Shown here in pieces: positions 1 through 51,600 of a stretch of DNA of 64,000 bases (the first letter of the stretch is position 1; each line of letters starts with the position of its first letter). The stretch is from IMG/VR virus record IMGVR_UViG_3300027852_000041; one strand, written 5' to 3'. The notes under the pieces are model-generated. The model worked only from the letters and a program-made list of their open reading frames with translations, made no database searches and had not been told where the DNA came from. A program made the translations under genes and the position numbers. The stretch is from a virus.

Positions 1-590
1 GCTCCAACCTCTTTAGCTTTAATGCTGAAACAAAGGTCTTGTCCCATTGCAAACTCTGTCGCAACATAAAATTGTCCCAATCTGTTTTCCTCACAAATAA
101 TGTTGATGTCGGTGAACCAGGGAAATGCGAGTCGCTTAAAAATTTTGGCACTGCATAGGAAACCACACGTCCCGAAACCATCGGTTTGGAAAGGTTTCTT
201 TCGTACGCTAACTTTTTTTGGGTCTTCTGCATAAAAATCTCCGTTTTGCCATTTACAAACACTTGTTTTGCCCATATATTTTCCAGATTTAATTATTGCC
301 CATCCTGTTGCAATATTATTCTCAGGGTCCTGTTGAACAATTTTCCATAGTTCTATAAAAAATTCAGAAGGAAAAGCCTGGTCTGCATCAATCATCATAA
401 CAAAATCAAAATCATTATCAATAGCCAGCTTAACTATTGCGTTTCTGGCATCTACAACGTGTCTCGCCGCTACAAAATCGAATACATGAGGTAATGGCAC
501 CAGCATATTCCGCAGAGAAAGAGAAAAAGCCGATGGGTTATAAGGAATGCTCCAAGGAGTCCCTATAAAAACTTTAGGCAAATCACTCAT
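1..590 (-). CDS. GT-A fold (family-2-like) glycosyltransferase; C-terminal part lies beyond the window edge
   Basis: Own translation from ATG at 590..588 (MSDLPKVFIGTPWSIPYNP...DFDFVMMIDADQAFP...) stays open to position 1. It has a DxD-type motif IDAD. It is absent from the ORF track because there is no stop inside the window. Confidence 0.55.
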   Translation of the reverse strand, partial: MSDLPKVFIGTPWSIPYNPSAFSLSLRNMLVPLPHVFDFVAARHVVDARNAIVKLAIDNDFDFVMMIDADQAFPSEFFIELWKIVQQDPENNIATGWAIIKSGKYMGKTSVCKWQNGDFYAEDPKKVSVRKKPFQTDGFGTCGFLCSAKIFKRLAFPWFTDINIICEENRLGQFYVATEFAMGQDLCFSIKAKEVG

Positions 591-618
591 ATTCTTCAAA
601 GACAAGTTGTCCGGTATT

Positions 619-2427
619 TTAAGCTTTGTTTTGTAATCCTGCATATCTCTCCTTACACCACCAATAATTGTGTCCAACATAAGTATTTAGTTGTCTCGAA
701 GGAACCTTAACCCTATAATGAAGCTGGTCGCTTAACTCCTTCCCAGAATAAGGATTAACTTCTGAATCTCCTATATTTTTGTAATATCCACTATTTAGCC
801 CACCGCATACTTTCTTAATTGAGCATTCCAAACATTTTGGAGCAAAGATATTTGTTCTGTCGGAAAGCCATTTGGAATATTCAAGGTATGGCGAAAATTC
901 TTTAGGCAAAATGCTGTAATCCCACTCATAACCATCATGCATCACTTGAGGAATGTTACAAATATGTTTTTCATATCCTTTCAGCAGGCACATTGGGAAG
1001 TATCGTACATTAACCATAACGCCGGCAGAGGTTAAAATATCAATCGCTTCTTTCAGGTAAAAAGCAATTTGAGAATTTCTCCCCTGAAAATCCTGTTTAT
1101 CAAGATGAGACCATTCATTATAGGGGTTAAAATTAATAAAATTACTGATTAAGGGTTTAACCTTGGCAAAATACTTAGCCAACTCTATTAAATCTTCAAA
1201 ATTACTTGTTAAGACCGTATTAGTTCTGAATTTGAAATTATTACTGTTACATTTTTCTATGGCTTTATTAACTTTTGCGAAACCATTTTTTGTCTTTGTT
1301 ACTTTATTGTGGATATCTTCAGAACCATGAATAGAAAAAAGAATATCTTCAAGCCCGGCATCCCAAAATTCATCTAATTTTGGTTCTATTTTTTGCCCAT
1401 GTGTAATAACACAGGGGAATAATCCCAACTTTCTTGCTCCCCAAAGCCATTTAGCAAAATCAGGGATGATAGTTGGCTCCCCTCCACTAAAATCGCAGAA
1501 ACGATTTCCTCTCGCCACTCCATCAACCAGAACCCTTTCCATTTCTTCCCATGTTAAAAATCTCCTTTCCTTTTTTTCCATGTGAGAATAGTAGCAAAAC
1601 TCACAACTTAGGTCGCATATACGCCCAACATCTGCCTTGAATCGCCTTGTTGGAGGAAGCCGATACGTCCCATGCCATTCCATTTTATTGTTCAAGCAAA
1701 TATCTGCCCCCCTTACCTTCACGGTATTCATTATGGAAGAATACTCAGGTTTTTTGTCTTCGTTCCCTTCAGTCTCACGGTTGTAAACATATAATGGACG
1801 ATTTATAAAACTTATCTTTCTGGCTGTTTCCAACATTGGAAGAAACAAAGCTGAATCCCCGCAAGTTTGCCAATATTTGCCGGTAGAAGGGTCAACAAGA
1901 GTATCTGAAGACACGCTTTTAAACATTTCAGCCCTGAATGTTCTAAAATGAGAATACGCAATTTTAGCGTAACGTGCCGAGGTCGGGTCTTTTAATGGAC
2001 GGGAAACCCCCATTGTTACCATTGGTGTTCCATTCTTTTGCCCGTGATAAGTAACGTGCTGGCTATAAACCATATCAGCGGATGATTTTTTATAAGCAGT
2101 TACAATTTCCTGCAAAGCCTTCGTCCCCAAAAGCCAGTCATCACCATCAAGCCATGACACAATATCGTCATCTTCAAGATTTTCTATTTTTGATATCCCA
2201 TAAAGAAAGGAAGAAAGTGGAGAGCCTGAATTGCTATCCCGCCTATATGCTTCTACGCTTCCATTATGCCTCTGTATCTTCTCCCATGTCCTGTCAGTTG
2301 AAGCATCATCGACAATAATATGCCTCATGTTTATCCCATCGGTATCTTGGTCTTTGACAGACAAAATGCAGGCATTTATATACTTTGAAGCATTATATGT
2401 TGGTGAAACAATATGAAGTTTTTTCAT
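619..2427 (-). CDS. Fusion protein: N-terminal GT2 glycosyltransferase + C-terminal radical-SAM domain with a Cys-rich SPASM/twitch-like tail
   Basis: N-terminal part: HIVSPTYNASKY...IIVDDASTDRT and the DxD motif WLDGDDW. C-terminal part: CDLSCEFC (CxxxCxxC, nt 1594..1617), the SAM-binding FSGGEPT, and a C-terminal CLECSIKKVCGG. The start overlaps the upstream stop (TAATG). Confidence 0.8.
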   Translation of the reverse strand: MKKLHIVSPTYNASKYINACILSVKDQDTDGINMRHIIVDDASTDRTWEKIQRHNGSVEAYRRDSNSGSPLSSFLYGISKIENLEDDDIVSWLDGDDWLLGTKALQEIVTAYKKSSADMVYSQHVTYHGQKNGTPMVTMGVSRPLKDPTSARYAKIAYSHFRTFRAEMFKSVSSDTLVDPSTGKYWQTCGDSALFLPMLETARKISFINRPLYVYNRETEGNEDKKPEYSSIMNTVKVRGADICLNNKMEWHGTYRLPPTRRFKADVGRICDLSCEFCYYSHMEKKERRFLTWEEMERVLVDGVARGNRFCDFSGGEPTIIPDFAKWLWGARKLGLFPCVITHGQKIEPKLDEFWDAGLEDILFSIHGSEDIHNKVTKTKNGFAKVNKAIEKCNSNNFKFRTNTVLTSNFEDLIELAKYFAKVKPLISNFINFNPYNEWSHLDKQDFQGRNSQIAFYLKEAIDILTSAGVMVNVRYFPMCLLKGYEKHICNIPQVMHDGYEWDYSILPKEFSPYLEYSKWLSDRTNIFAPKCLECSIKKVCGGLNSGYYKNIGDSEVNPYSGKELSDQLHYRVKVPSRQLNTYVGHNYWWCKERYAGLQNKA

Positions 2428-3389
2428 TATTCTTCCATCACCGATTTAATTATAGAATCTAACTTTTTTAATTGTTTATTAATCTCATATTGTTCTACCA
2501 GCTTTTTCTTTTTCTTGCTTATCTGTTGTTTTTCTTCATTGCTTAACTTTTCAAACTGTCCAAGCAAATTAACAAAACTGTCTACTCCTGTAAAACTACA
2601 GTCCTTGCCGAACCTTTCTCTTGCCCCGCAAAAATCATGAATCAGCGGTATCAAGCCACTTCCCATGCTTTCTATTATAGAATTGCCAAAAGACTCAAAA
2701 AGAGAAGTAGAAAGATTGTATGATTTATCCTCAAACCAGGCAGGAAGATTTTTATTATCTACCCAGCCTTCAAAAAAAATGGTATCAGATAAATTCATTT
2801 TTTTTATCATATCAGATAAATATAGTTCATATCTGGGGTCTTGAAAACGACCAATAACATGAAATGTGTAATCCATGCCTTTTTTCTTGAGAGCATCTGC
2901 CAAATATAAAATCATCTGGGGATTTTTCTTATAATTAATCCAGCCAATCCATGCTATTTTATTGCCATACTTTTTTTTCTTCCACTTAAATAAATTGAAA
3001 TCAACCCCGTTCGGCAAAATATCCATCGAAGAAAGCGGTATTTTTGATTTTTCTTTTACCTGCTGCATTAATGTTTCTATTTCTTTACTTACGATTAAAA
3101 GCCTATCACAATTCAACCAATAAGTATTCAAAGGAACAGGCGTAAACAGTTCAAAAGAATGAAGCCTGCAAATTACCTTTGACTCTTTGGGATGTCGCAT
3201 TGCTTCCCGGAACATATCATCGCAAAATTCAAACCAGGTCAAATCATTTTTGCGCATCAAAATTCTTATTTGATCCTGGGGGATTAGTTCGTCAATGTAA
3301 AGAACTTCATGCTTCTTCCCAAGATGAGAAACCATGTGCCCATGATGAAAATCAAAAGTTTTGTATCTGTCAAAAATAACTATTTTCAT
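2427..3389 (-). CDS. GT-B fold glycosyltransferase (GT1/GT4-like)
   Basis: C-terminal motif ESFGNSIIESMGSGLIPLI matches the E-x-FG...E-(A/S)-M-x-x-G-x-P signature of GT4 enzymes. RBS GAGGAG lies upstream. Confidence 0.7.
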   Translation of the reverse strand: MKIVIFDRYKTFDFHHGHMVSHLGKKHEVLYIDELIPQDQIRILMRKNDLTWFEFCDDMFREAMRHPKESKVICRLHSFELFTPVPLNTYWLNCDRLLIVSKEIETLMQQVKEKSKIPLSSMDILPNGVDFNLFKWKKKKYGNKIAWIGWINYKKNPQMILYLADALKKKGMDYTFHVIGRFQDPRYELYLSDMIKKMNLSDTIFFEGWVDNKNLPAWFEDKSYNLSTSLFESFGNSIIESMGSGLIPLIHDFCGARERFGKDCSFTGVDSFVNLLGQFEKLSNEEKQQISKKKKKLVEQYEINKQLKKLDSIIKSVMEE

Positions 3390-3421
3390 GCATTCTCCTC
3401 TGTTAATGTTCCACGAGAAAC

Positions 3422-3472
3422 AAAAAAGGGGATTCCCAACATATTTTTATTTTACATTGAAAATCCCCTTTT
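3422..3472 (-). terminator. 11-bp perfect hairpin (AAAAGGGGATT / AATCCCCTTTT) with flanking T-runs on both strands
   Basis: Arms at 3424..3434 and 3462..3472. On the minus strand it is followed by TTTTTTG. It lies between the 198-aa late gene and the GT genes. The loop is large (27 nt), so confidence is moderate. Confidence 0.4.
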
Positions 3473-3529
3473 GTAAATATTTTCTCCTTTTTTTGATTTG
3501 GATAGAATTTTAACCCATTTTTCTCCTTC

Positions 3530-4126
3530 TTACATCCATAGTTTTACGTACCTCAAAACCACTTCCTGAATGATTAACTCACCCTCGGCATGATCGCCAC
3601 CACAGGTTAATTGTGTATGCACCCCGTAACCTGCCGTGAAAGTAGAAGCAGCAATAGTCACCGTGTCTTTGAATAAAAAAGTTTCGCTTATCCCGGTGGC
3701 CAGTGTTCTTTCGGAAGGGTCAGTAATCCCTGACGTGGTAGTGGCATCACCAATCGCGGCAGTAGAGGCGTTCGGGTTGACAGCGTTATAGGTACACTGC
3801 CAGTTAATTACGTTCCCTTTTGTCGCACTTGCTATCGTCTGGTAATAAACATCCAGATAAGACGCTCCCGTAGAGTCGAAATCATTGGGAAGTTTTACCA
3901 GAAAATCTAACTCATCACCAGTAGCAGGAGCAATCCCGCCCAAACCAGAAGAATTTGCTTCAGCCACGACACTTTTCGCGTTACCAGTTCCCAGCATCGA
4001 CCCAGCGCCGGCAGCATCTTTGGTACTGTACGACTGCATAATAGCCTGCCATGGTATCCGCAATTCTGCATACTTCGCAGTAGTGTCAGTTGGTTTTAAT
4101 TGTGAACTCCATCTTGTTACGGCCAT
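3530..4126 (-). CDS. Late (virion-associated?) beta-rich protein, unknown function
   Basis: 198 aa. RBS GGAGGT upstream. It is the last gene of the capsid operon and has Ser/Thr/Ala-rich stretches. Confidence 0.6.
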   Translation of the reverse strand: MAVTRWSSQLKPTDTTAKYAELRIPWQAIMQSYSTKDAAGAGSMLGTGNAKSVVAEANSSGLGGIAPATGDELDFLVKLPNDFDSTGASYLDVYYQTIASATKGNVINWQCTYNAVNPNASTAAIGDATTTSGITDPSERTLATGISETFLFKDTVTIAASTFTAGYGVHTQLTCGGDHAEGELIIQEVVLRYVKLWM

Positions 4127-4175
4127 AACTATTTACCTCCTTTTGGTATAAATGAGTTTGTGAACTCATTTTTAG

Positions 4176-4631
4176 TTACTGATCTGCTTTTCCACCATAT
4201 TTGGTGTCAACAAACATCCCATAAGCATGGTCGTTTGTCCCATCTAAATCTTCATCTGTGAACCCTTCAATCAAAAAAACAGGAGCGGTAGTCGTTTCAT
4301 CGTTGTCAATCCCGTCAGCCTCATTGGTAATGGTTGCCAATGCCACCACAGTATCTACTTGAATCTGCGCTGTAGTGTCCTCACATTTAGTAATAAAACG
4401 ATTCCCCTCTACTGTAGGGTAATACGGGCAGGTTGTTGAACTGTCCCCGGTCATTGCTTTAGCCGCAATCCCGAGAATATTTACATCGGTATCAATCGTA
4501 GCAACATAAAGGTAGCCTGCCGTAGAAACCAAAGGACTACCCTTTTTTATCGCCTCGCCAGTATATGGTGTTCCATACCTGATTTGATGATCCACTAATT
4601 GATAGGGTTCGAAAACTCTTTGTATCGCCAT
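4176..4631 (-). CDS. Head decoration-like protein (paralog of 4661..5137)
   Basis: Start moved to MAIQRVFEPY because GGAGGTAAACATG precedes it. It shares FEPY, KG..V, GY and ILG(I/V)AA blocks with the neighbouring 158-aa protein. The DUF2190-like pattern was recognised by eye only. Confidence 0.6.
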   Translation of the reverse strand: MAIQRVFEPYQLVDHQIRYGTPYTGEAIKKGSPLVSTAGYLYVATIDTDVNILGIAAKAMTGDSSTTCPYYPTVEGNRFITKCEDTTAQIQVDTVVALATITNEADGIDNDETTTAPVFLIEGFTDEDLDGTNDHAYGMFVDTKYGGKADQ

Positions 4632-4660
4632 GTTTACCTCCAATTAGTACTTTTTTTGAA

Positions 4661-5137
4661 TTACGCAGTCTGATCCCCGGCATTTTGATGCCTGGTGATT
4701 TTAAACAAAACCCTGCCATTAGTGCCAAGCTCATCCGAAGGATGCACGCCGGTTACAGTAATAACTGTTTCCGTGGTAGCATCTTCGTTCACCTCCATTA
4801 CCCCGGATGCCCCTTCAATATCACATTGTTTATGAACAAGAGCCTGGGCAGAATCTCCCGAACACTGTCCGGTAAAAACCGTATCTGGTGAATCATACAC
4901 AGGAACGTCCGCGTTTGAAGCCGTAGCAGCGGCAGCTCCGGCAACGCCTAAAAGGGAACCTACCGTTGCTGAAGCTGCTTTTATATACCCCGCGTTTCCA
5001 GGGTCTTTTCTTACAGCGTCACCTTTGGTAATTTTCGCGGCATCACTCGAAGAATGTTTATACCAGTGCATTGGGGCAGAACTGTCACCTTCATGGTTGT
5101 AAGGCTCAAAACCACAAGGGCTATCTAAATTTGCCAT
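4661..5137 (-). CDS. Head decoration-like protein (paralog of 4176..4631)
   Basis: 158 aa. RBS GGAGGTAAACATTATG. It contains GFEPY...ITKGDAV...GSLLGVAGAAA and sits directly downstream of the capsid gene. Confidence 0.6.
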   Translation of the reverse strand: MANLDSPCGFEPYNHEGDSSAPMHWYKHSSSDAAKITKGDAVRKDPGNAGYIKAASATVGSLLGVAGAAAATASNADVPVYDSPDTVFTGQCSGDSAQALVHKQCDIEGASGVMEVNEDATTETVITVTGVHPSDELGTNGRVLFKITRHQNAGDQTA

Positions 5138-5158
5138 AATGTTTACCTCCTTTTTTTG

Positions 5159-6103
5159 TTAATCTCCCGCGCTACCGTAAACACCAACATAGTCCGGCCA
5201 TCCGCAAGCGAATCTTTCGTAAATGAAATAAAGAAGATTATCGGACAAATCTTCCACCGTCATTTTTGTTCTTGGTTTTTCTCTCCACTGGAACTGAAGA
5301 GGGTATTCTTTCCCCATAGATGCTTTGTCCGCCAACAGATACCAAGCATCCGCATCAACATTCCCCAACCAATACGGCCAAATTATTGACTCGATTTCGG
5401 TTCTTTTTCTGAGAGCGTTAATAGCGTTTTCAGCATTTTCCGGGTATTTGTCGGAATCTAAAAGCTCAGTAGCTTTTTGCTGCAACTGATGGGGGGTTAA
5501 AAGAATTTTGGGCGAGATAGCCTTCGGCAACCCTGCATCGTTCTTGAAGGTATAAAAAGCATTCACCGCAGCCCAAAGACTTGTAGCGGTTAAATCCGCG
5601 TCGGTAGAAGGTTTATTCGATTGAGTATCCCCGTTTTTCATGGCGTGGGAAGTACTGAAAAGATACTCAGTGGCAGACCGATTCCCACTTTGCCAGGCAG
5701 GGAGCGAATCAAAACCTCCGGTAAAAACTGAAGAAGCGTAATATTGTATCGTGGCTTCAGCGGCTTCTCTCATTACCTGCGGAAAACGGGAAATAACACT
5801 GTATCTCTCATCCGCCTGCGCTTCATGAGTGATGGTCATATACACGCCATACGCAATACTCTCAAGGTCGGTGTAATACCCTTCCCCAGGTTCGACGGCA
5901 GAATAATTTGTACCTTCATCCTTTTTTGATAAAAGCGGAACACCCTCGATAGTCATAAATCTTTCATACTGGTACCCGAAAGAAGACACATTGAAAACCT
6001 GATTTATGACGGCGAAAGGATCTGCCTTTTTCCAGGGCGAGAACAAAATCTGGTCAAGCCCGGCTTTCATTAAATTTGCAACATTAGCTCTAATAACAGC
6101 CAT
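5159..6103 (-). CDS. Major capsid protein (HK97-fold candidate)
   Basis: 314 aa. Its position after the scaffold-like gene, its size and its composition are typical of a capsid protein. Strong RBS. Confidence 0.65.
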   Translation of the reverse strand: MAVIRANVANLMKAGLDQILFSPWKKADPFAVINQVFNVSSFGYQYERFMTIEGVPLLSKKDEGTNYSAVEPGEGYYTDLESIAYGVYMTITHEAQADERYSVISRFPQVMREAAEATIQYYASSVFTGGFDSLPAWQSGNRSATEYLFSTSHAMKNGDTQSNKPSTDADLTATSLWAAVNAFYTFKNDAGLPKAISPKILLTPHQLQQKATELLDSDKYPENAENAINALRKRTEIESIIWPYWLGNVDADAWYLLADKASMGKEYPLQFQWREKPRTKMTVEDLSDNLLYFIYERFACGWPDYVGVYGSAGD

Positions 6104-6109
6104 GATATT

Positions 6110-6655
6110 TTACCTCCTTATTGATTCTTTTCTTTTAATCATATCACTAAGCACTTCCTTAATTGTGCCTAGCCCGTTTGCGCTCATTAATTTTTTCATT
6201 CCCTCTATTTGCTGCGCCTGCGTTTCTAAAAACTGGGAATTTTTATGAGCTATTCTGGCCTTACGTTCAGCGTTATACATATCCAGCGGCTTTTCCATCA
6301 AGATGGCTTCAGGAATGCCTGTGGTAGTATCAACAGGGTTTCCTTCCATTAATGCCTTCCCCGCATTTCTGTCTACAACAACCCAGCCTTTTTTCTTTAA
6401 TTCTTCTACTCTCCTGGGTTCTCTCCTTACGTGCCTATATTTCTTATCCTTTTTGCCATCTACGTGGAAAAAATCCTTTTCCTGTGAATAGTCTGCCACA
6501 AATTCAGTTACCGGAGAATCATTCACCGAAGAATCAGTTTTTTCCTGAGAAATATTTGTTTCCATAGTTTTTTTCCCTTTATTTTGCATTCTTGTTTTTC
6601 GTGCTTTCTCCCTGACCTCCGGGTTGCTAAACCCCCTGGCTTTTTTCTCTTCCAT
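6110..6655 (-). CDS. Basic Lys/Arg-rich late protein, unknown
   Basis: 181 aa. It lies between the scaffold and capsid genes. RBS AAAGGA. Confidence 0.55.
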   Translation of the reverse strand: MEEKKARGFSNPEVREKARKTRMQNKGKKTMETNISQEKTDSSVNDSPVTEFVADYSQEKDFFHVDGKKDKKYRHVRREPRRVEELKKKGWVVVDRNAGKALMEGNPVDTTTGIPEAILMEKPLDMYNAERKARIAHKNSQFLETQAQQIEGMKKLMSANGLGTIKEVLSDMIKRKESIRR

Positions 6656-6659
6656 TTAG

Positions 6660-7553
6660 TTATCCTTTCAAAAAAGCATCAAGATTATTAGCAACTTCCT
6701 CCAATTCCTTTTCTCCGGTTATCCCTAACTTTGTCATAAACGCCTTGCCTTTGTCATCAAGCGTATTCCCGGTATTACCGGAATTATTAGCAGGGGCACC
6801 AGCACCTTCCGCTATTTGCCCGGACTTTTTGTTCAAGTCGGCTAAAGCGGCTTGCCTCCCTTCCTCAATATATTTATTTTTCAATTCCTGAAGAGAAACA
6901 TTTTTGTCCTGGGTGTTTTCCTCCGCTGTTTTTTGCTGCGAAGCTAACGCTGCCGAGGCTCTTTCTTTTTTCCCAAGATGCCGTTCCTTCGCCAGCAAAG
7001 CTCTCACAAACTCAGGGTTTGACATTGCCTGATAAACAATATTGTCGGGTACTTTAGAAATTTCATCCTGAAAATCATTATACCCCGGCAAATTTTGTGC
7101 TGTTTTCTTCTCCTTGTCATGGGCAATCATCATTTGCTTAATAAAAGGAGTAAGCGCCTTTAAAGGAGTCGAAATTAATTGTTCAGCCAACTCTGCTTCA
7201 ATTTCTTCTATGCCGGGTTGCTGAACATTGGCAGGCTGGTTTTGCGAAGGCTGAGCGGCATTGTTGTCCACGCCGCCATTCGTTTCATCAAACCAATTAC
7301 TTTCTCCTGCCCCATCATCCAAAGTCGAAGTATCTTTTTGAGATAATTCCTCAAGTTTTTTCTCCAACTTTTCTATTCTCAACACCTTTGCCTGCAAAGC
7401 TTCGTATGGGACTGTTTCCGGTATTTTTGCACCATCTTTATTCTCTGCTCCTTTCGTGGAAGACGGCTCCACGCCCTCTTTAACGTCCTGGTTTTCCAAG
7501 AACGGCGTCTCCTCGGAACTATTGTCTTTAACGCCCGTTTGTTCTTCTGCCAT
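6660..7553 (-). CDS. Scaffolding protein candidate
   Basis: 297 aa, acidic, coiled-coil-like (LEKKLEELSQK...). It sits between the portal and capsid genes. RBS AGGAGG. Confidence 0.5.
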   Translation of the reverse strand: MAEEQTGVKDNSSEETPFLENQDVKEGVEPSSTKGAENKDGAKIPETVPYEALQAKVLRIEKLEKKLEELSQKDTSTLDDGAGESNWFDETNGGVDNNAAQPSQNQPANVQQPGIEEIEAELAEQLISTPLKALTPFIKQMMIAHDKEKKTAQNLPGYNDFQDEISKVPDNIVYQAMSNPEFVRALLAKERHLGKKERASAALASQQKTAEENTQDKNVSLQELKNKYIEEGRQAALADLNKKSGQIAEGAGAPANNSGNTGNTLDDKGKAFMTKLGITGEKELEEVANNLDAFLKG

Positions 7554-7564
7554 AGTTAAACCTC

Positions 7565-7948
7565 CTAAAAATTAGGGTCTTTCGACCAGTGTTGCTTATG
7601 CTTTCTTTTTTTTCTCAACCACCTGACATCACTCATTACGGTATCATATAAATCCTTAATCTCCAGAATCCTTCCTCTGGCTTCCCTGTAGTCTCCCCAA
7701 TCGCTAATAATTTTTTTATCTGTCATTCCCTGAAGGCATAATTCCGCTTTTCTTACCTCTAATGTTTTTATGAAAAATTTTCCAAGGTCAGAATTGAAGA
7801 TAAAATCCTCTAATTTTAACGCTCGTTCTTCTCTCGCGGCTCTATCAAGTTTTCTTTGCAAGTCAGTCAAAGGCTTTTTTATCTTTGATGTTGCCGGCTT
7901 TTGCGTTACCCCACCTTTTTTTTCTTTCATGTCTTTCGCATCTGTCAC
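7565..7948 (-). CDS. Hypothetical late protein
   Basis: 127 aa. GTG start overlaps the portal stop (GTGA). RBS GGGAG. Confidence 0.5.
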   Translation of the reverse strand: MTDAKDMKEKKGGVTQKPATSKIKKPLTDLQRKLDRAAREERALKLEDFIFNSDLGKFFIKTLEVRKAELCLQGMTDKKIISDWGDYREARGRILEIKDLYDTVMSDVRWLRKKRKHKQHWSKDPNF

Positions 7949-9654
7949 GAAGCTTCTCCCTCATTTTGCTGTTTGCTGATTTCTCGCATTATCTCAACGG
8001 CGATGGGCTGTATTTCCTCCGGCAAAGCGGCAACTGGAATCATCGCCTCTCTTTTTTTTACAAAATCTGACGTTTCCTTAAAATCATACAAATTGTCCAT
8101 CATTTTTAAAACATTAGGAAGGTCAAACTGGTATGTGGGATCGTTCTGTAAAATATTGGCTATTTCCCTCAGAAGGTTAGGGAATTGCTGTTGCTTGCTA
8201 TATTTTGAATATTCAGTTTCTACCGCTGTAGCGGCAAAATTAAATTCAATATTTTTAAAAAATCCATCTTCCTTCCCGCGTTTCAGAATATTGAAAGTCT
8301 TTTCTGCCAAAGGCCGCAAAGTTAATCTGTCTGCCTGCTGTATAAATAAGGTAAAAACTTTTTCAGCGGCAGCCATCAAGCCTGTAAATTCTCCCAAAGT
8401 CTCTCTCTTGGATTGCCCTATGCCTACCGTTTCAGCCGTAGCCCTGCTTGTTTTTTCAATTTCTCTGTCAAGAATACTGTGCATATTCCCGAATGCCCCA
8501 AAATTTACTTCCGGGGTGTCAACAATTTTCACATCATCATGATTTTTTAGAAACCAGAGAGAATCCGGCTTACGGATTAAATCATCTTCCGTTAAGTCTG
8601 AGCGTTCCAATACCTGAACAATGTTTGTCAACGACCTTTTATGCTGGTCAAGAAACAAATCGTGATGTTCTTTTTGCTCCACAATAAGAGATTCTACCGC
8701 CTGCAAAGCTCCTTTCCCATAAAAAGAACCGGGAACTATCTGATAAATAGAGGCAATGAAAGGCTTATAATAATTTTTTTCTCCTTCCTCCTCTGTTTCA
8801 AAATAGTTGGTAGAAGGTTCGCATCTGATGATAGTTTCTATTTTGTCTCCATTAAGAACAGCAGTGATAACATATTCTTCCCACACCCTATTCTTAACTT
8901 CAAATTCACCCCACTGTTCTATCAAGTCATATACCGGGGTGCCTGTAGCATCGGCGTTTGCTTCGCTTCCATCACTTTCTTTTGTTATAAAAGCATCTTT
9001 TTGCAAAGTCTTCTTTTTTATTAGTTTGTCTAGGTCGAAATATACGTTTTCCATCCCAGCATAAAGATAACCTGCTTTTTCGGGGTTATCAATTACCGAA
9101 GGCGCCTTCAGCCTAGAAAGTTGAGATATGCTTTTTTGGAATAAATGATAGCAATAACGCATATCATCAATTCTCCCCGGTTTATTACAGGAAGGATCAG
9201 GACCAAAATTTTCAGCTGTTACAAATTCCGTAAAAGGATATAATCCTTTCGGATATATTTTGCAAAAAGATGTTCCTATGTTAGCTGCTTCTTTAAATAA
9301 TTCTACGGCGGTTAAATAAAAGTTTGATTTTCTATCGAGGATATGGGCAAATTCTTTTTGAAGTTTCAGGAGGTCCGTTTGTTCTATGTCCGGGTTTTTT
9401 ATGGTAATCCAGTCCGCAACAGAGAAAATCGCGGCCATTATTCTTGGAGCGATTGTCTCTATAATCTGGTCGCCCTTCGGCATTATCAGGTTAGATTCCC
9501 AATCATGCTCCCTGTCGTCTTGCTGGGAAAGGTACAATTTCCTGTATTTTTCCCAGTCCGTAGATTTTTGTTTTACAAAAGCACTGGAAGCATCAAAGTT
9601 TTCCTGAAGCTGCTTTTTTGCTCTTTCCAGAATTTTTGCAGTTGGTTTTTTCAT
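7945..9654 (-). CDS. Portal protein candidate
   Basis: 569 aa after moving the start to ATG 9654 (RBS GAGG 7 nt upstream). Size and position downstream of the terminase fit a portal. Confidence 0.65.
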   Translation of the reverse strand: MKKPTAKILERAKKQLQENFDASSAFVKQKSTDWEKYRKLYLSQQDDREHDWESNLIMPKGDQIIETIAPRIMAAIFSVADWITIKNPDIEQTDLLKLQKEFAHILDRKSNFYLTAVELFKEAANIGTSFCKIYPKGLYPFTEFVTAENFGPDPSCNKPGRIDDMRYCYHLFQKSISQLSRLKAPSVIDNPEKAGYLYAGMENVYFDLDKLIKKKTLQKDAFITKESDGSEANADATGTPVYDLIEQWGEFEVKNRVWEEYVITAVLNGDKIETIIRCEPSTNYFETEEEGEKNYYKPFIASIYQIVPGSFYGKGALQAVESLIVEQKEHHDLFLDQHKRSLTNIVQVLERSDLTEDDLIRKPDSLWFLKNHDDVKIVDTPEVNFGAFGNMHSILDREIEKTSRATAETVGIGQSKRETLGEFTGLMAAAEKVFTLFIQQADRLTLRPLAEKTFNILKRGKEDGFFKNIEFNFAATAVETEYSKYSKQQQFPNLLREIANILQNDPTYQFDLPNVLKMMDNLYDFKETSDFVKKREAMIPVAALPEEIQPIAVEIMREISKQQNEGEAS

Positions 9655-9700
9655 TTGTTGCCTCAAAATATTGGTAAAACTACTTCTAACCAATTAAGAA

Positions 9701-14110: not shown

Positions 14111-14186
14111 TGGCAGTGGCAGAAGGATTCGAACCTTCGTATATCCGGATCAAAGCCGGATGCGTTAACCTCTTCGCCATGCCACT
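14111..14186 (-). tRNA. tRNA-Gln (anticodon TTG) with encoded CCA
   Basis: Hand-folded cloverleaf. Acceptor AGTGGCA/TGCCACT. Anticodon stem TCCGG/CCGGA with loop CTTTGAT. T arm GAAGG-TTCGAAT-CCTTC. Discriminator G plus CCA. 76 nt. Confidence 0.85.
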
Positions 14187-32279: not shown

Positions 32280-32930
32280 TTGAGCATAAAAGATACATAT
32301 CGTGTACAGAGTATAAAAAAGGAAGAATGCAAAGAATGGTTCTTGCATAAACATTATGCCCATCGTATGGCAAATATTATTTATGCTTTTGGTTTGTATT
32401 GTAGTAACGTCCTTTGTGGGGTGTGCTCTTTTGGCCCGGCTCCAAATATAAACACAAACAATATCGTTGGTGACGTGAAGGTTTATGAACTGAATAGGCT
32501 TGTAATAAACCAGGATACGCCCAAGAACACATTGTCATTTTTTGTTTCAAAAGCATTGATTTCGCTTCCTACACCAACCTGTATAATTTCATACGCAGAC
32601 ACGGGAAGAGGGCATCACGGGTACATTTATCAAGCAACGAATTGGATATATACTGGAGAAAGTTCCCCAGGGGGTGCCACCGAATTTGAAAAAGATGGAA
32701 TAATTTATCACGCACGAAATCTTTATGGTGAAAATTATGATAAAAATAAATTTATGTTTACGCCAATTCCAAGAAGCCCAAAACACAGATATTTTTACTT
32801 TTTAGGTAGCAAAAAACAGAAAAAAGAAATGTTGTCTAAGCTACCTTTCGCCGTGTTGCCATATCCGAAAGGCGATAATAAACGATATGACGCAAGTTAT
32901 GAGGTTAGGACTCAACTATCTTTGTTGTAG
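32280..32930 (+). CDS. Mom-like GNAT-fold protein (candidate DNA-modification acyltransferase)
   Basis: 216 aa. The block CIISYADTGRGHHGYIYQATNWIYTG, together with YELNRLVI and KNTLSFFVSKAL, matches my recollection of the Mom adenine-modification family. TTG start. Confidence 0.5.
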   Translation: MSIKDTYRVQSIKKEECKEWFLHKHYAHRMANIIYAFGLYCSNVLCGVCSFGPAPNINTNNIVGDVKVYELNRLVINQDTPKNTLSFFVSKALISLPTPTCIISYADTGRGHHGYIYQATNWIYTGESSPGGATEFEKDGIIYHARNLYGENYDKNKFMFTPIPRSPKHRYFYFLGSKKQKKEMLSKLPFAVLPYPKGDNKRYDASYEVRTQLSLL

Positions 32931-48697: not shown

Positions 48698-51600
48698 TTA
48701 ATAAATTTCTTTTCTTGTCCGCTTTTTTTTATAGAAAAACAAATGTTCAATTCCTTCGTCCATAGCTTTCTGCATATCTTTGTGAGCTAAATACCCCGGC
48801 ACAAAAAGAAGAAGAGAAGACCACGCCTCTTTCCTGTATTTTTTTATATTTCTTTTGTCCCCAACGCCTACAGCTTGCAAAAACTTGGCAAGAACGATGA
48901 GCTTGGAAGGAATAACCCCGATCCCGGTAGGAATAACACCGAGCAAAACAGTTTTTAAATAATCGTAATCAAAGTTTTTCGCTACAAAAGCCAATATCGC
49001 CCATTGGATAGCGGTTCTCGCAGCCTTATCTCCCTTTCTTTCTTTTACTGTTCTATGCATGTGGTCAAAATACCACATACACCAAGAGCTATACTGCCCC
49101 ATTAATTTTCCTGTAGGCGATTTAAAAAAAACAGGCAAGTCTATTCCGTATCCCCACTGTGTATTTGTGATAGCTTTCTCCCCCGCCCTTATTAAATCTT
49201 TATCGGAAGCATTCGGATTTCTTTTTTTGGCAACCATATACCCGGTAGCAAAAGCAGTTTTAACATTATCTACGTCAGCCGCTCGGTAAAATACCATCAT
49301 CGCGTCCCTGGCCTTGTCCCCGATATCGGTTATCCCTGAAATTTTTTCTTCCCAAACCTGATATTGTTTTTTCCTAATTTGCACTAAATCAGACAACTCC
49401 ATCGCTATTTTGACTTCCTGGTTCATCCGTCCAGCAGTTCTACCTTTGAGATAGGGGATTAGCTTATATTCATTAATAATAAGCCATTGCTGAAGTGCGT
49501 TTCTTATCCCAAGTTTAGGTCTCAGCCCCATAAAAGAAGAATAGTTCGCGCTTTGTAATTCATGAACAAAGGTACGATAAAGCCTTGGATTCTGGGAAAC
49601 ACTAATCCCTGCCTTTTTGAATATTTTTTGAGTTGTTTTTTCATTGGCAACTTCAATACCCCTCATTAGCCTCGAAATTGCAACATCTCCAACCTTCTCG
49701 TCTTTTGTCGGGTGTTTTTTAATAACTGTGTTAATCCAGCTTTGGGCGAAAGTCTTTTTTTGTTCATTAAACGAATCCAGAAGCGGCTGTATTTTTTCAA
49801 TAGCTTCTTCCCCGTATTTATGCCTGAACCCAACAGTTATGTAACTTTGCAACAACCGTAAAGAATCCTTTTCTGTCTTGGAAAGCTGCCCTGTTCTTGC
49901 GTGTTCAGCCCAAAAATCAAACTTTACCGCCCCCTGCGGAGAAAAAACCCAGTTGACAAGTTGAGTTTTATTCTTGAAAGATGGCCTTCGAGGGTTATAT
50001 TTCTCAATATAAGCTTCTATCTCAAAAACTTCCCAAAGATTATCATATATTTTTGACACGGCATTACTGGCACGTTTTTCTTCATTGCTTAACTTTTCCC
50101 CAGGCAATCTTCCTTCCCTGAACTCCGTTATTCTTCTTCTGCTGGCTTTCCCCAAACCTTTAAATATTTTTTTAGATTCTTCATATAAGGGATGGGAAGA
50201 TTCCTGAACCTTTAAAGCCATGTGCCTGAAAGGGGCTATAAATTTTTCTCCGAAAATCCTTTTAACCGGCGTAAAATAGGGAAAAATAACATCTTCTCCT
50301 GGCCGTATTTCATTAGTTATTTTAATAAACTCAACAATATCCTTAACCTCTGACTCTTTTAAGTAATCCCCTTTCTGGTACTGTAAGGCATAATCTATTA
50401 AATCAAGATCATCAACATCATAAATTCTAATAGCTCTTTCCAGTTTTTCTTTTGTCTTTTTTGAAATAGCAGCACTTTTATCAATTTCTTTAAAACTTTC
50501 AACGCCATGCAGTACTACTTTCTCTCTATCCATAATAAGAAGTTTTAATATGTCTGCTTCTTCCCTGTCTAATTCTTCTACCGTAGTCGCTTCTCTTGTG
50601 CTTGATCTAACAATATCGTCAATATCTGCCTTGGTTAAATTTTTCGATTCTGCGAGTTTATGAATTTCCTTAATATCTTTTCCGGTGATAGCCTCTCCTG
50701 CTTCTTCCCAATCTTTTATGGCCTTTCTTGTCTCTTTCCGTTCCTTTCTTTTGCTTATACCCTCGATAACTTCTTCGTAAACTGTCTGGACTTCCCGGCC
50801 TTTCTTTTTTAAGGCATCAATAACCGCACGGGCTTCTTTTATATCCATGCCGGCCATGCTTTTTATCTTGCCCAAAGCTTCAATTTTAGCGGCGTCAAGG
50901 TCTTCCTTAACAGGGGCAAGACGATGGGCGAGTGCCTTTAAGTGGTTGAGTTCTTTTTTCTCTTTTTTTGATAATGGTTTCTGTGGTTTTGCCCCCGGCT
51001 CTTTTTCAACAGCATATTTTACCCCAACCTTTTTCCCAGCTTTCTTAATCTTCCCCGTCTCAACAGCCCTTTTCCCTTTTGCCAACCACCCCATCAATTC
51101 AGAGTCAGTAACTTTGAAATTGAATCCCATCTTACGCAACCAGACTTTGATAGAGCGAAGTACACGCCTCATCAATGGCGTGTTATCGTTTATCTTAGCC
51201 ATACGCCCTAATTTTTCTTTTACGGCATCCCTGCGCCCTTTTGCGGTGTTTAAATCGAATTTGTAATCTTTGGCTACTTTATAGAGATTCGTGGCTGGAA
51301 CATCTTTCCCGGAGTCAAATATCGCTTTATCTTTTGCTATAAATGATTTCCATATCTGGTCGTAAAACTTTTTGCCTACTATTTTTTCAAGACCGGCATG
51401 GTTAAAGGTTTCATGTGCCAAAGTCTGGAGAGCGTCATCAACGCTTTTAAGATTCTTGCTAAGAAGAAAAACTGTATTTTCTTTTGAGTCATAGAAACCT
51501 TTGACAATTTTGCCTTCTTTCGCTTGCTGGCTAACTCTGTCTTGGTGTTGCAAAGGAAGCTCACTGATATCTTGCGCAACTTTGACGTGGGGCGTCACCC

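What the first reader, a model, noticed from the sequence alone, without database searches (positions are those of the whole stretch)
1..3389. Three-gene glycosylation cassette appended to the end of the capsid/decoration operon
Three co-oriented glycosyltransferase genes follow the capsid, decoration and beta-rich late genes on the same strand. They are a GT-B/GT4-like gene, a GT2/radical-SAM fusion and a further GT-A gene that runs off the window. Only one hairpin (3422..3472) separates them from the late genes. Phage GTs are usually discussed for DNA glucosylation or O-antigen conversion, but placement next to capsid genes has been linked to virion glycosylation in some mycobacteriophages. 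The radical-SAM partner suggests an unusual sugar or linkage. The cassette may continue beyond the left edge of the window.
Basis: partly seen in the sequence, partly recalled or inferred. Interest (0 to 1): 0.75.

Follow-up and report, generated by a model that had tools for sequence, protein, structure and literature searches.

The report
Phage head-module protein-glycosylation cassette with radical SAM
An uncultivated phage carries three sugar-adding enzyme genes, one fused to a radical-SAM enzyme, inside its late structural operon just after the capsid genes, and comparative evidence suggests (without proving) that they put an unusual sugar coat on a virus-particle protein.

Summary
On the minus strand lie a GT-B/GT4-like gene (2427..3389), a GT2::radical-SAM fusion (619..2427) and a divergent GT-A gene (starts at 644, runs off the window). 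They follow the capsid gene, two small paralogues and a 198-aa beta-rich gene, after one strong terminator-like hairpin.

Three corrections:
- The cassette does not continue leftwards. The third gene is 233 aa and ends 58 nt past the edge.
- The cassette is not at the end of the operon. It lies between the head and adaptor/tail modules.
- The hairpin is a terminator-like attenuator found in 8 of 9 related lineages.

The block [MCP, ~155-aa protein, 198-aa jelly-roll protein, terminator, 0-2 methyltransferases, GT-B, GT2::rSAM, GT-A] recurs in lineages whose enzymes are only ~45% identical. All three genes are under purifying selection (dN/dS 0.06-0.10) and encode soluble proteins. The 198-aa protein and GT-B are always found together. 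Bacterial homologues of the radical-SAM domain (41% identical, both domain orders) sit in two flagellin-glycosylation-type loci.

Best reading: late, low-level expression of a cytoplasmic protein-glycosylation system acting on a virion surface protein. It is analogous to, not homologous with, the mycobacteriophage Corndog system. No glycan has been shown. I class it as a new variant of a known kind.

The parts
1..644 (-). Third glycosyltransferase (GT3), a divergent GT-A. The window holds the first 214 of 233 codons; the gene ends 58 nt beyond the left edge.
   Evidence: ATG at 644..642. The full length comes from the L001/L004 overlap and from sister phage L008. PHROG 1574 E 6.5e-10. 4 of 5 family members hit Pfam Glycos_transf_2, best E 5e-5. 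The DxD motif IDAD is conserved. Homologues lie in the same position in L005, L006 and L007, and as a GT3-like::methyltransferase fusion in L096/L097. The AlphaFold model failed (pLDDT 37).
619..2427 (-). GT2::radical-SAM fusion protein, 602 aa. GT2 domain about 1915..2412; radical-SAM core about 1171..1629; conserved Cys-rich C-terminal extension about 703..1170.
   Evidence: Pfam PF00535 68.3 bits and PF04055 73.3 bits. Invariant residues: DD (D40, D41), DGDD (D94, D96, D97), D191, CX3CX2C (C271, C275, C278), SGGEP (314-318), and C480, C532, C535, C541. Best solved-structure relatives of the rSAM part are BlsE cytosylglucuronate decarboxylase (2e-18), viperin-like enzymes, SkfB, PqqE and anSME. 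For the GT2 part they are chondroitin synthase and TarP/TarS. No transmembrane segment. dN/dS 0.093.
2427..3389 (-). GT-B fold glycosyltransferase (Glycos_transf_1, GT4-like), 320 aa.
   Evidence: Pfam PF00534 60 bits. PHROG 2170 glycosyltransferase E 4.9e-13. All NCBIfam hits are far below their cut-offs. dN/dS 0.060. Present next to every 198-aa family gene whose context is known.
3417..3472 (-). Intrinsic-terminator-like hairpin (20-bp stem at 3424..3472) plus U-tract. Proposed attenuator between the abundant head proteins and the enzyme, adaptor and tail genes.
   Evidence: Folding energy -28 kcal/mol, z -4.9. Equivalent hairpin plus T-run, with unrelated stem sequences, lies directly after the 198-aa gene in 8 of 9 lineages. 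Only 32 nt separate it from the GT-B start, and that stretch includes the GAGGAG ribosome-binding site.
3530..4126 (-). 198-aa beta-sandwich (jelly-roll) protein. Last gene of the highly expressed head block and candidate glycan acceptor.
   Evidence: No Pfam, PHROG or NCBIfam match. AF2 model pLDDT 68.6, pTM 0.68, all-beta. Foldseek gives weak matches to CBM27/CBM22, gingipain adhesin domains, and fibre-knob or C1q-like viral domains, TM 0.3-0.55. Most conserved gene of the region: 95% identity and dN/dS 0.029 against the sister phage. GC3 equals that of the MCP. Small family: 9 hits in the word-indexed search; 12 representatives at E<=1e-10 and 59 at E<=1e-3 in the exhaustive search. Always found with GT-B.
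4176..4643 (-). 155-aa paralogue of the 158-aa protein (151 aa from the ATG used in the ENA gene call). Present in this phage and in L095, absent from sister phage L008.
   Evidence: Alignment A2; hmmsearch; ORF map of L008.
4661..5137 (-). 158-aa post-capsid protein. A role as decoration protein is possible but unverified.
   Evidence: No family match. Conserved next to the MCP in all lineages, including those lacking the 198-aa protein.
5159..6103 (-). Major capsid protein (HK97-fold, Phage_capsid_4 / Mu gpT-like).
   Evidence: Pfam PF10124 and PF25209; PHROG 133, 4523 and 371. No Ser/Thr-rich C-terminal extension.

Best explanation
The three genes encode a soluble, cytoplasmic protein-glycosylation system that belongs to the phage's late structural operon.

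Proposed expression. Transcription of the head genes mostly stops at the hairpin after the 198-aa gene. The read-through fraction expresses, at low level, GT-B, GT2::rSAM and GT3. It then continues into the adaptor and tail genes.

Proposed chemistry. Using host nucleotide sugars, the enzymes build a short glycan on Ser/Thr of a surface-exposed virion protein.
- The most likely acceptor is the co-inherited 198-aa jelly-roll protein.
- The MCP or the 158-aa protein may be acceptors for the more widely conserved GT3.
- The radical-SAM domain, with one auxiliary Fe-S cluster, then alters the sugar installed by its fused GT2 domain. By analogy with BlsE, viperin and BtrN-type enzymes, the reaction could be decarboxylation, dehydration, oxidation or epimerisation.
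- In relatives, class I and TylF-like methyltransferases would methylate the glycan.

Shown here: gene content, domain motifs, solubility, purifying selection, conserved synteny, terminator-like structures, co-occurrence, and the bacterial contexts.

Inferred, not shown: late read-through expression, a protein acceptor, which protein is the acceptor, and the radical-SAM reaction.
For: 1. Position. The contiguous sister genome has the order MCP, 158 aa, 198 aa, hairpin, GT-B, GT2::rSAM, GT3, small ORFs, 160 aa, 324 aa (PHROG 399 structural), 217 aa (SU10_adaptor), 370 aa, tail. In this phage the contig overlap gives the same order. No terminator or long gap follows GT3.

2. Conservation. The same block occurs in L005, L006, L007, L092 and L093, where GT2::rSAM is ~45% identical and the MCP ~30% identical. 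These carry 1-2 added methyltransferases. L090/L091 and L095 carry at least the 198-aa gene and GT-B.

3. Co-inheritance. Every member of the close 198-aa family with a known context has GT-B within two genes (9 lineages). The closest capsid relatives without the 198-aa protein are L096 (64% MCP identity) and L097/L098 (57%). They lack GT-B and GT2::rSAM but keep a GT3-like::methyltransferase fusion in the same slot.

4. Expression logic. A terminator-like hairpin lies after the 198-aa gene in 8 of 9 lineages. In five of them the gap to the next gene is only 51-57 nt, which leaves no room for a separate promoter. The genes show start/stop overlaps of 1 nt and 26 nt.

5. Functional genes. dN/dS is 0.06-0.10 and the catalytic motifs are invariant.

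6. Soluble proteins. The maximum Kyte-Doolittle 19-residue hydropathy is 1.05-1.40, so no transmembrane segment is predicted. The cassette has no flippase, polymerase or GT-C partner.

7. Bacterial homologues. The rSAM domain is 41% identical in bacterial proteins, fused to GT2 in the opposite order. These lie directly after flgK-flgL-fliW-csrA, and in a locus with the order flgL, csrA, fliW, GT2/TPR, fliC, flaG, fliD, fliS, TPR protein, rSAM-GT2-TPR. That is the layout of flagellin glycosylation islands. TPR-GT fusions such as FlmG are cytoplasmic flagellin O-glycosyltransferases (PMC7591256).

8. Precedent. [quoted passage not shown]
Against: - No glycan, transcript or virion proteome is available. 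Everything rests on metagenomic contigs.
- The enzymes are not homologous to the mycobacteriophage ones.
- The MCP has no Ser/Thr-rich C-terminal tail of the kind reported as acceptor in mycobacteriophages.
- The 198-aa model has only moderate confidence and its fold matches are generic. It could be a glycan-binding protein rather than an acceptor.
- A distant 198-aa-like protein occurs without recognisable GTs in L125.
- L090/L091 carry the 198-aa gene and GT-B, but an 83-aa DUF3850 gene follows instead of GT2::rSAM.
- The nearest homologue in isolated phages, Campylobacter phage CP220 gp163 (30% identical), is a stand-alone rSAM among DNA-metabolism genes.
- Another bacterial homologue lies in a cluster with a Wzx-type flippase, which fits polysaccharide synthesis.
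- The phage enzymes lack the TPR domains of their flagellar-locus homologues.
Confidence: 0.5

Rival explanations
1. The cassette modifies a host cell-surface glycan or glycoprotein during infection. Targets could be LPS, capsule, teichoic acid or host flagellin. The effect would be to block superinfection or to stop progeny sticking to cell debris. The 198-aa protein would then be co-inherited because it binds that same glycan.
For: - GT-B and GT2 resemble polysaccharide GTs most closely, all far below cut-offs: VpsD and EpsE; TuaG, TarP/TarS and chondroitin synthase.
- One bacterial homologue sits beside a GT-C protein and a Wzx flippase.
- The 198-aa model weakly resembles carbohydrate-binding modules.
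- Homologues in flagellar loci would also fit a flagellin target.
Against: - None of the three proteins has a membrane segment, and there is no flippase or GtrA/GtrC-like partner.
- The genes sit in the middle of the late structural operon, behind a terminator and without their own promoter. That is late and weak expression for a surface-remodelling function.
- No integrase was found among the scanned ORFs, so lysogenic conversion is unlikely.
Confidence: 0.2
2. The enzymes hypermodify the phage DNA by glycosylating a modified base, or act on a nucleotide. The radical-SAM domain would work on a nucleotide or nucleoside sugar, as BlsE, viperin and MoaA do.
For: - The best solved-structure relatives of the rSAM domain act on nucleoside or nucleotide substrates.
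- The homologue in Campylobacter Firehammervirus phages lies among DNA-metabolism genes.
- The window encodes other nucleotide and DNA modification functions: Mom family, dCTP deaminase-like, and nucleoside deoxyribosyltransferase-like proteins.
Against: - No thymidylate-synthase-like hydroxymethylase, TET/JBP dioxygenase or DNA cytosine methyltransferase was found in the ORFs scanned.
- The cassette lies in the head module, not the replication module.
- It is co-inherited with a structural protein.
- The bacterial homologues lie in flagellar or glycan loci, not DNA-modification loci.
Confidence: 0.07
3. The cassette makes a soluble glycoconjugate or small molecule unrelated to the virion, or it is a selfish moron whose position is accidental.
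For: - GC3 of the three genes (0.33-0.34) is at the low end for the phage.
- Cassette content varies between lineages: methyltransferases, an extra 216-aa gene, and replacement by DUF3850.
Against: - Position and order are conserved across lineages with ~45% identity.
- Purifying selection equals that on the structural genes.
- The genes are translationally coupled.
- They are co-inherited with the 198-aa protein.
Confidence: 0.08

Closest known systems
Mycobacteriophage virion glycosylation. Cluster O Corndog: gp35 O-methyltransferase, gp36/37 GTs, gp38 GlcNAc-transferase. Also cluster F Che8.
   Same: Phage-encoded GTs, with an O-methyltransferase in some relatives here, lie inside the head-gene block. 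The enzymes are non-virion and soluble. The proposed product is a glycan coat on structural proteins (PMC4351075, PMC11600133, PMC11256854).
   Different: - No sequence homology.
- Different slot: after the capsid block here, between portal and protease in Corndog.
- Different phage type (SU10-like portal and adaptor, unknown non-actinobacterial host).
- Includes a radical-SAM domain.
- The candidate acceptor is a separate 198-aa protein rather than the C-terminal tail of the capsid or tail-tube protein.
- Glycosylation has not been demonstrated here.
Bacterial flagellin glycosylation islands with soluble cytoplasmic O-glycosyltransferases (for example FlmG with a TPR domain; Maf; GmaR-type GT2-TPR)
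   Same: Homologous rSAM-GT2 proteins (41% identical rSAM domain) lie next to fliC/flgL/fliW/fliD/fliS in two bacterial lineages, with TPR-GT2 partners. The logic is the same: cytoplasmic glycosylation of a polymerising surface-structure subunit encoded next door (PMC7591256).
   Different: - The phage proteins lack TPR domains and have the opposite domain order.
- No rSAM-GT2 protein from a flagellar locus was found described in the searched literature.
- The acceptor in the phage cannot be a phage flagellin.
Sugar- and nucleoside-modifying radical-SAM enzymes with auxiliary clusters (BlsE, viperin-like enzymes, BtrN/anSME, MoaA)
   Same: CX3CX2C motif, GGE motif, and a C-terminal Cys cluster. 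BlsE is the best solved relative (E 2e-18).
   Different: - All NCBIfam scores are far below the cut-offs.
- No Pfam SPASM hit.
- The conserved 180-aa C-terminal extension (NFINFNPY, RYFPxC, EWDY, CxxCx5C) defines a separate, uncharacterised family that is fused or adjacent to GT2.
Phage GtrABC O-antigen conversion and prophage TarP teichoic-acid glycosylation
   Same: A phage-encoded GT2 enzyme. Weak PHROG hits to GtrB-like families and a PDB hit to TarP.
   Different: - No GtrA or GtrC, and no membrane anchor.
- Not in a lysogeny or moron position.
- No integrase found.

Membership tests
Phage virion glycosylation systems (Corndog/Che8 type) | Phage-encoded glycosyltransferases with intact catalytic motifs | tested here: met
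   Pfam GT1 and GT2 scores are above the gathering cut-offs. DD, DxD and D191 are invariant. dN/dS is 0.06-0.10.
Phage virion glycosylation systems (Corndog/Che8 type) | GT (and methyltransferase) genes embedded in the virion structural gene block | tested here: met
   The cassette lies between the head and adaptor/tail genes. Methyltransferases are present in relatives.
Phage virion glycosylation systems (Corndog/Che8 type) | Glycan covalently attached to capsid or tail proteins (mass spectrometry or glycostain) | not testable with these tools
   The phage is metagenomic and no particles are available.
Phage virion glycosylation systems (Corndog/Che8 type) | Sequence homology to the mycobacteriophage enzymes | tested here: not met
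   tblastn of GT-B against 50,697 phage records gives no match. GT2::rSAM matches only Campylobacter and Listeria phage records and one uncultured phage record; the 15 rows shown are Campylobacter radical-SAM genes. The system is therefore an analogue, not a family member by descent.
Phage virion glycosylation systems (Corndog/Che8 type) | Acceptor is a C-terminal region of the capsid or tail-tube subunit | tested here: inconclusive
   The MCP ends ...GVYGSAGD with no Ser/Thr-rich extension. MCPs of phages with and without the full cassette have similar C-termini. The 198-aa protein has a conserved Thr-rich loop, DATTTSGITDP.
Radical SAM superfamily | CX3CX2C cluster motif plus GGE SAM-binding motif in a partial TIM barrel | tested here: met
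   C271, C275, C278 and SGGEP 314-318 are invariant. PF04055 scores 73.3 bits.
SPASM/twitch radical-SAM subfamily | C-terminal auxiliary Fe-S cluster domain (CX2CX5CX3C-type motif) | tested here: inconclusive
   C480, C532, C535 and C541 are invariant, giving CX2CX5C plus one upstream Cys. There is no Pfam SPASM hit. PqqE, anSME and SkfB match only over the core.
GT2 (GT-A fold) glycosyltransferases | Pfam PF00535 match with DxD metal/nucleotide-sugar motif | tested here: met
   The fusion protein scores 68.3 bits with DGDD. The third gene shows only sub-threshold or family-level support, best E 5e-5, with IDAD.
GT4-like GT-B glycosyltransferases | Glycos_transf_1 domain with EX7E motif | tested here: met
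   PF00534 scores 60 bits. FESFGNSIIES was read from the translation. The N-terminal acceptor domain has no family match.
GtrABC-type O-antigen conversion | Membrane-anchored GtrB with a GtrA flippase and a GtrC serotype-specific GT | tested here: not met
   No transmembrane segment. The neighbouring genes are structural.
Phage DNA base glycosylation | Partner enzyme that makes a hydroxymethyl-pyrimidine or other acceptor base, with GTs in the DNA-metabolism module | tested here: not met
   Pfam scans of 56 further ORFs found no thymidylate-synthase-like, TET/JBP or C5-methyltransferase protein. Only ORFs of 90 aa or more were scanned.
Flagellin-glycosylation-island rSAM-GT2 proteins (uncharacterised) | Homologous rSAM domain with NFINFNPY, RYFPxC, EWDY and CxxCx5C motifs, fused to GT2 | tested here: met
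   41% identity over 324 aa to P0016 and 38% to P0032. The flagellar context is seen in L151/L157 and L164.

The most novel reading that the evidence does not exclude
A previously undescribed, radical-SAM-dependent protein O-glycosylation system is shared between phage capsid modules and bacterial flagellin-glycosylation loci. In it, a GT2 domain installs a sugar on a structural-protein subunit and the fused radical-SAM domain rewrites that sugar in place. In the phage the system decorates a dedicated 198-aa capsid knob protein. More broadly, the slot just after the capsid gene in SU10-like phages would be a hot-spot for post-translational-modification cassettes. Different lineages carry different sets there: GT-A::methyltransferase (L096/L097); GT-B plus GT2::rSAM plus GT-A; or three rSAMs plus an FkbM methyltransferase plus a GT2-TPR-GT1 fusion (L121).
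Probability: 0.35. Interest if true: 0.8.

Novelty: new variant of a known kind. Interest (0 to 1): 0.62.

Why it matters
Virion glycosylation in phages is so far documented experimentally mainly in mycobacteriophages. There it alters antibody recognition. A conserved, unrelated cassette in an uncultivated SU10-like lineage would show that glycan coats on phage particles arose independently and are more widespread than thought.

It also points to an uncharacterised enzyme family. This is a GT2 fused, in either order, to a distinctive radical-SAM domain. Its bacterial members sit in flagellin-glycosylation-type loci. The phage version offers a compact system of three enzymes and one candidate acceptor that could be reconstituted to find the reaction.

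The adjacent-acceptor layout, and the variety of modification cassettes in the same slot, suggest a general way to find modified phage structural proteins from sequence alone.

Tried and rejected
- Megablast of 1..9700 against 50,697 phage records: no match.
- Single-protein pattern scan of IMG/VR for the fusion protein: nothing. The alignment-based scan found only the sister phage plus stand-alone GT2 or rSAM genes.
- AlphaFold model of the third GT from a 5-sequence alignment: it failed (pLDDT 36.9), so no fold search was run on it. Sequence search of the PDB gave nothing significant.
- 198-aa protein: fold matches are generic jelly-rolls with TM 0.3-0.55. I therefore do not call it a CBM or a fibre knob.
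I used the capsid alignment instead.
- The primary paper on virion glycosylation (PMC10527164) is not held. Its content is cited only through papers that describe it.
- Literature searches for radical SAM plus GT plus phage capsid or flagellin glycosylation found nothing relevant.
- The portal row of the dN/dS table used a wrong offset and should be ignored.
- A sigma-70-like promoter match (TTTACA-17-TAAAAT, 3477..3449) overlaps the hairpin. I do not rely on it. Promoter-like matches occur at chance frequency (30 found against 28.6 expected). The host is unknown. The five lineages with 51-57 nt gaps have no room for such an element.
- I first read L096/L097 as lacking the cassette altogether. 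Profile comparison then showed that their 425/433-aa protein is a GT3-like domain fused to a methyltransferase. The co-occurrence claim is therefore limited to the 198-aa protein with GT-B and GT2::rSAM.
- The L095 relative has only a weak hairpin after its 198-aa gene, so the terminator count is 8 of 9, not all.

Full report
**1. What is in the window**

All the genes of the finding are on the minus strand. In the direction of transcription they run as follows.

| Feature | Coordinates | Notes |
|---|---|---|
| Portal | 7945..9693 | PHROG 332/1216 |
| 127-aa gene | 7565..7948 | |
| Scaffold-like gene | 6660..7553 | |
| 181-aa gene | 6110..6655 | |
| Major capsid protein | 5159..6103 | Phage_capsid_4 / Mu gpT-like |
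| 158-aa gene | 4661..5137 | paralogue of the next gene |
| 155-aa gene | 4176..4643 | paralogue of the previous gene |
| 198-aa gene | 3530..4126 | no family match |
| 140-nt gap | 3390..3529 | contains the hairpin |
| GT-B | 2427..3389 | |
| GT2::radical SAM | 619..2427 | |
| Third gene (GT3) | starts at 644 | leaves the window |

Pfam scores for GT-B (60 bits) and for both halves of the fusion protein (68.3 and 73.3 bits) are well above the gathering cut-offs.

The third gene is only weakly GT-A-like in this window (E 0.0033). However, 4 of 5 members of its small family hit Glycos_transf_2 (best E 5e-5), and a DxD motif is conserved.

The three genes are tightly coupled. GT-B and the fusion gene share a TAATG overlap, and the fusion gene overlaps GT3 by 26 nt.

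The hairpin has a 20-bp stem at 3424..3472 followed by a U-tract on the coding strand. Its folding energy is -28 kcal/mol and z = -4.9.

**2. What lies beyond the left edge**

The exact fusion protein occurs on an ENA contig that stops 14 nt past the window edge. That contig end overlaps, by 141 nt, the start of another contig from the same sample. The second contig continues into the window's right end. The assembly is therefore circular, at about 66.2 kb.

A sister phage with 84-95% identical proteins has the whole region on one contig. Both sources give the same answer:
- The third GT is 233 aa and ends 58 nt beyond the window.
- The next genes are a 64-aa zinc-ribbon-like ORF and a 160-aa gene.
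- Then come a 324-aa structural protein (PHROG 399), a 217-aa SU10-type adaptor, and the 370-aa gene at 62471..63583.

So the cassette has three genes. It lies between the head and the adaptor/tail modules. No terminator or long gap separates it from the downstream structural genes.

**3. Are the genes functional and soluble?**

- dN/dS against the sister phage is 0.060 for GT-B, 0.093 for the fusion and 0.095 for GT3. Synonymous divergence is 0.5-0.9, in the same range as the capsid (0.051) and adaptor genes.
- Ten full-length fusion homologues were aligned. Invariant residues are the GT2 DD and DGDD motifs with D191, the CX3CX2C motif (C271, C275, C278), SGGEP, and four C-terminal cysteines (C480, C532, C535, C541) that could hold one auxiliary cluster.
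- None of the three proteins has a hydrophobic stretch long enough to span a membrane.

**4. Comparative genomics**

Full-length fusion homologues at 43-48% identity lie on phage contigs with the same layout:
1. terminase, SU10-type portal, (Cpn10), scaffold
2. capsid protein
3. a ~150-aa protein
4. a protein of the 198-aa family
5. one or two methyltransferases (class I; TylF-like in L007)
6. GT-B, then GT2::rSAM
7. adaptor genes further downstream

One homologue, P0005, even fuses a TylF-like methyltransferase to the GT2::rSAM protein. An HMM search shows that GT3 is also present after the fusion gene in L005, L006 and L007.

The 198-aa family is small:
- 9 proteins in the word-indexed search of 5.8 billion sequences
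- 12 representatives at E<=1e-10 and 59 at E<=1e-3 in the exhaustive search

In all nine lineages where its context is known, GT-B follows within two genes.

A capsid-anchored scan of metagenomes returned 57 loci. The closest capsid relatives that lack the 198-aa protein are L096 (64% identity) and L097/L098 (57%). They also lack GT-B and GT2::rSAM. In the same slot they carry a 425/433-aa protein. It is a GT3-like domain (hhalign E 1.7e-5; joint HMM E about 1e-77) fused to a class I methyltransferase.

This gives two nested patterns:
- A GT3-type enzyme goes with the capsid and the 158-aa-type protein.
- The 198-aa protein goes with GT-B and, usually, GT2::rSAM.

There are exceptions:
- L090/L091 have the 198-aa gene and GT-B followed by a DUF3850 gene.
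- L125 has a distant 198-aa-like protein without recognisable GTs.
- Most capsid relatives at ~30% identity have nothing comparable.

**5. The hairpin**

A GC-rich stem followed by a T-run lies directly after the 198-aa gene in 8 of 9 lineages. The stem sequences are unrelated between lineages. In five lineages the whole gap to the next gene is 51-57 nt, so a separate promoter is unlikely.

The simplest reading is an attenuator. It would separate proteins needed in hundreds of copies (capsid, 158-aa and 198-aa proteins) from enzymes, adaptor and tail proteins needed in few. In line with this, GC3 of the 198-aa gene equals that of the capsid gene (0.44), against 0.33-0.34 for the GT genes. This is inference; there are no transcript data.

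**6. The 198-aa protein**

It has no family match. The AlphaFold model has moderate confidence (pLDDT 68.6, pTM 0.68). It shows a beta-sandwich with a disordered Ser/Thr/Gly/Ala-rich loop at residues 30-53.

Foldseek finds generic jelly-rolls, with TM-scores of only 0.3-0.55:
- carbohydrate-binding modules
- gingipain adhesin domains
- knob domains of viral collagen-like and tail fibres, and C1q-like domains

The most conserved stretch of the family is a Thr-rich loop, DATTTSGITDP, with G133 invariant.

It is the most conserved protein of the region between the two sister phages (95% identity, dN/dS 0.029). I regard it as a surface-exposed virion protein and the best acceptor candidate. It could equally be a glycan-binding partner.

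**7. What the enzymes resemble**

Radical-SAM part:
- Its best solved relatives are BlsE, a cytosylglucuronate decarboxylase (E 2e-18), followed by viperin-like enzymes, SkfB, PqqE, anSME and MoaA.
- All NCBIfam hits are far below their cut-offs.
- The domain plus its 180-aa extension is 38-41% identical in bacterial proteins. There it is fused to GT2 in either order and often to TPR repeats.

Bacterial contexts:
- Most are in Syntrophobacteraceae and other Thermodesulfobacteriota MAGs, with tandem TPR-GT2 genes downstream.
- In one lineage the gene lies directly after flgK-flgL-fliW-csrA and an epimerase, and is followed by GT9 and TPR-GT2 genes.
- In a second lineage the order is flgL, csrA, fliW, GT2-TPR, fliC, flaG, fliD, fliS, TPR protein, rSAM-GT2-TPR, and then a 1666-aa rSAM/SPASM-GT4-WbsX-TPR-GT2 protein.
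- That is the layout of flagellin glycosylation islands. TPR-GT proteins such as FlmG are cytoplasmic flagellin O-glycosyltransferases whose TPR domain binds flagellin (PMC7591256).
- A Nitrospirota homologue instead sits with a GT-C protein, GT4s, a B12-rSAM and a Wzx flippase.

Isolated phages:
- The only homologues listed are stand-alone rSAM genes (30% identical) of Campylobacter Firehammervirus phages. They lie among DNA-metabolism genes.
- GT-B has no hit in isolated phages.

**8. Alternatives**

- O-antigen-conversion-type function. This is unlikely: there are no membrane parts, the position is in the late operon, and no integrase was found.
- DNA glycosylation. This is unlikely: no enzyme that would make an acceptor base was found, although the phage has a Mom-family gene and nucleotide-metabolism genes elsewhere.
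- Host surface or flagellin modification. This cannot be excluded.

**9. Comparison with what is known**

The nearest known system is mycobacteriophage virion glycosylation. Corndog has an O-methyltransferase, two GTs and a GlcNAc-transferase between its portal and protease genes, and these are not virion components (PMC4351075). [quoted passage not shown]

The present cassette works like that system in layout and probable purpose. It is not related to it by sequence. It has a different slot, a radical-SAM component and a dedicated candidate acceptor. I found no paper describing it.

**10. Verdict**

| Item | Assessment |
|---|---|
| Observation | confirmed |
| Virion-protein glycosylation (best explanation) | confidence about 0.5 |
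| Novelty | new variant of a known kind |
| Interest | 0.62 |

Noticed in passing
L121:8001-16909 (metagenome contig Ga0172381_10001891): A different modification cassette sits in the same post-capsid slot. After the MCP comes a 191-aa Thr/Ser/Gly-rich repeat protein. Then follow three radical-SAM genes (one B12-binding, one with a SPASM domain), an FkbM methyltransferase, and a GT2-TPR-GT1 fusion of at least 812 aa. L138 has MCP, a homologous 193-aa protein, then an rSAM gene. The slot after the capsid gene may be a hot-spot for post-translational-modification enzymes.
   Followed up: partly
window 32280..32930 (+): A Mom-family protein (Pfam PF25680, E 2.6e-33) lies in the early/replication block. 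Other ORFs match dCTP deaminase-like, dUTPase, nucleoside 2-deoxyribosyltransferase-like and Fic families, though the batch scan does not say which ORFs. This suggests DNA or nucleotide modification independent of the GT cassette.
   Followed up: no
window 4176..4643 (-) versus 4661..5137 (-): The 155-aa gene is a diverged tandem paralogue (27% identity) of the 158-aa post-capsid gene. The duplication is present here and in L095 but absent from sister phage L008.
   Followed up: partly
window 1..130 (-) and contig ends of L001, L002 and L004: Two co-occurring sister phages in sample ERZ27237542 share an identical stretch inside the third GT gene, and both ENA contigs break there. The two contig ends are identical over at least the last 80 nt. 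The 141-nt overlap with contig L004 allowed the genome to be closed in silico.
   Followed up: yes
L004:205-399 (+), just beyond the window's left edge: A 64-aa ORF with CxxC...CxxxxC spacing (zinc-ribbon-like) lies between the third GT and the 160-aa gene. In sister phage L008 this interval is about 1.4 kb and holds other small ORFs.
   Followed up: no
window 48698..55582 (-): A 2294-aa ORF in the tail/injection block has no PHROG match. The neighbouring 697-aa protein matches an internal virion protein family (PHROG 511).
   Followed up: no
L005:4055-4330, L006:5086-5346, L092:2079-2351: Relatives encode a Cpn10 (GroES-like) co-chaperonin directly after the SU10-type portal gene. The window phage has a 127-aa gene without that domain in the same place.
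   Followed up: no
L155 (JAXHUS010000504.1, 2.6 kb): A copy of the fusion gene whose rSAM part is 81% identical lies on a short 36%-GC contig binned into a Thermodesulfobacteriota MAG from a tar biofilm. It is probably a phage fragment and gives only a weak hint about the host.
   Followed up: no
window 14111..14186 (-): A single tRNA-Gln (anticodon TTG) lies between the terminase and the early-gene block.
   Followed up: no
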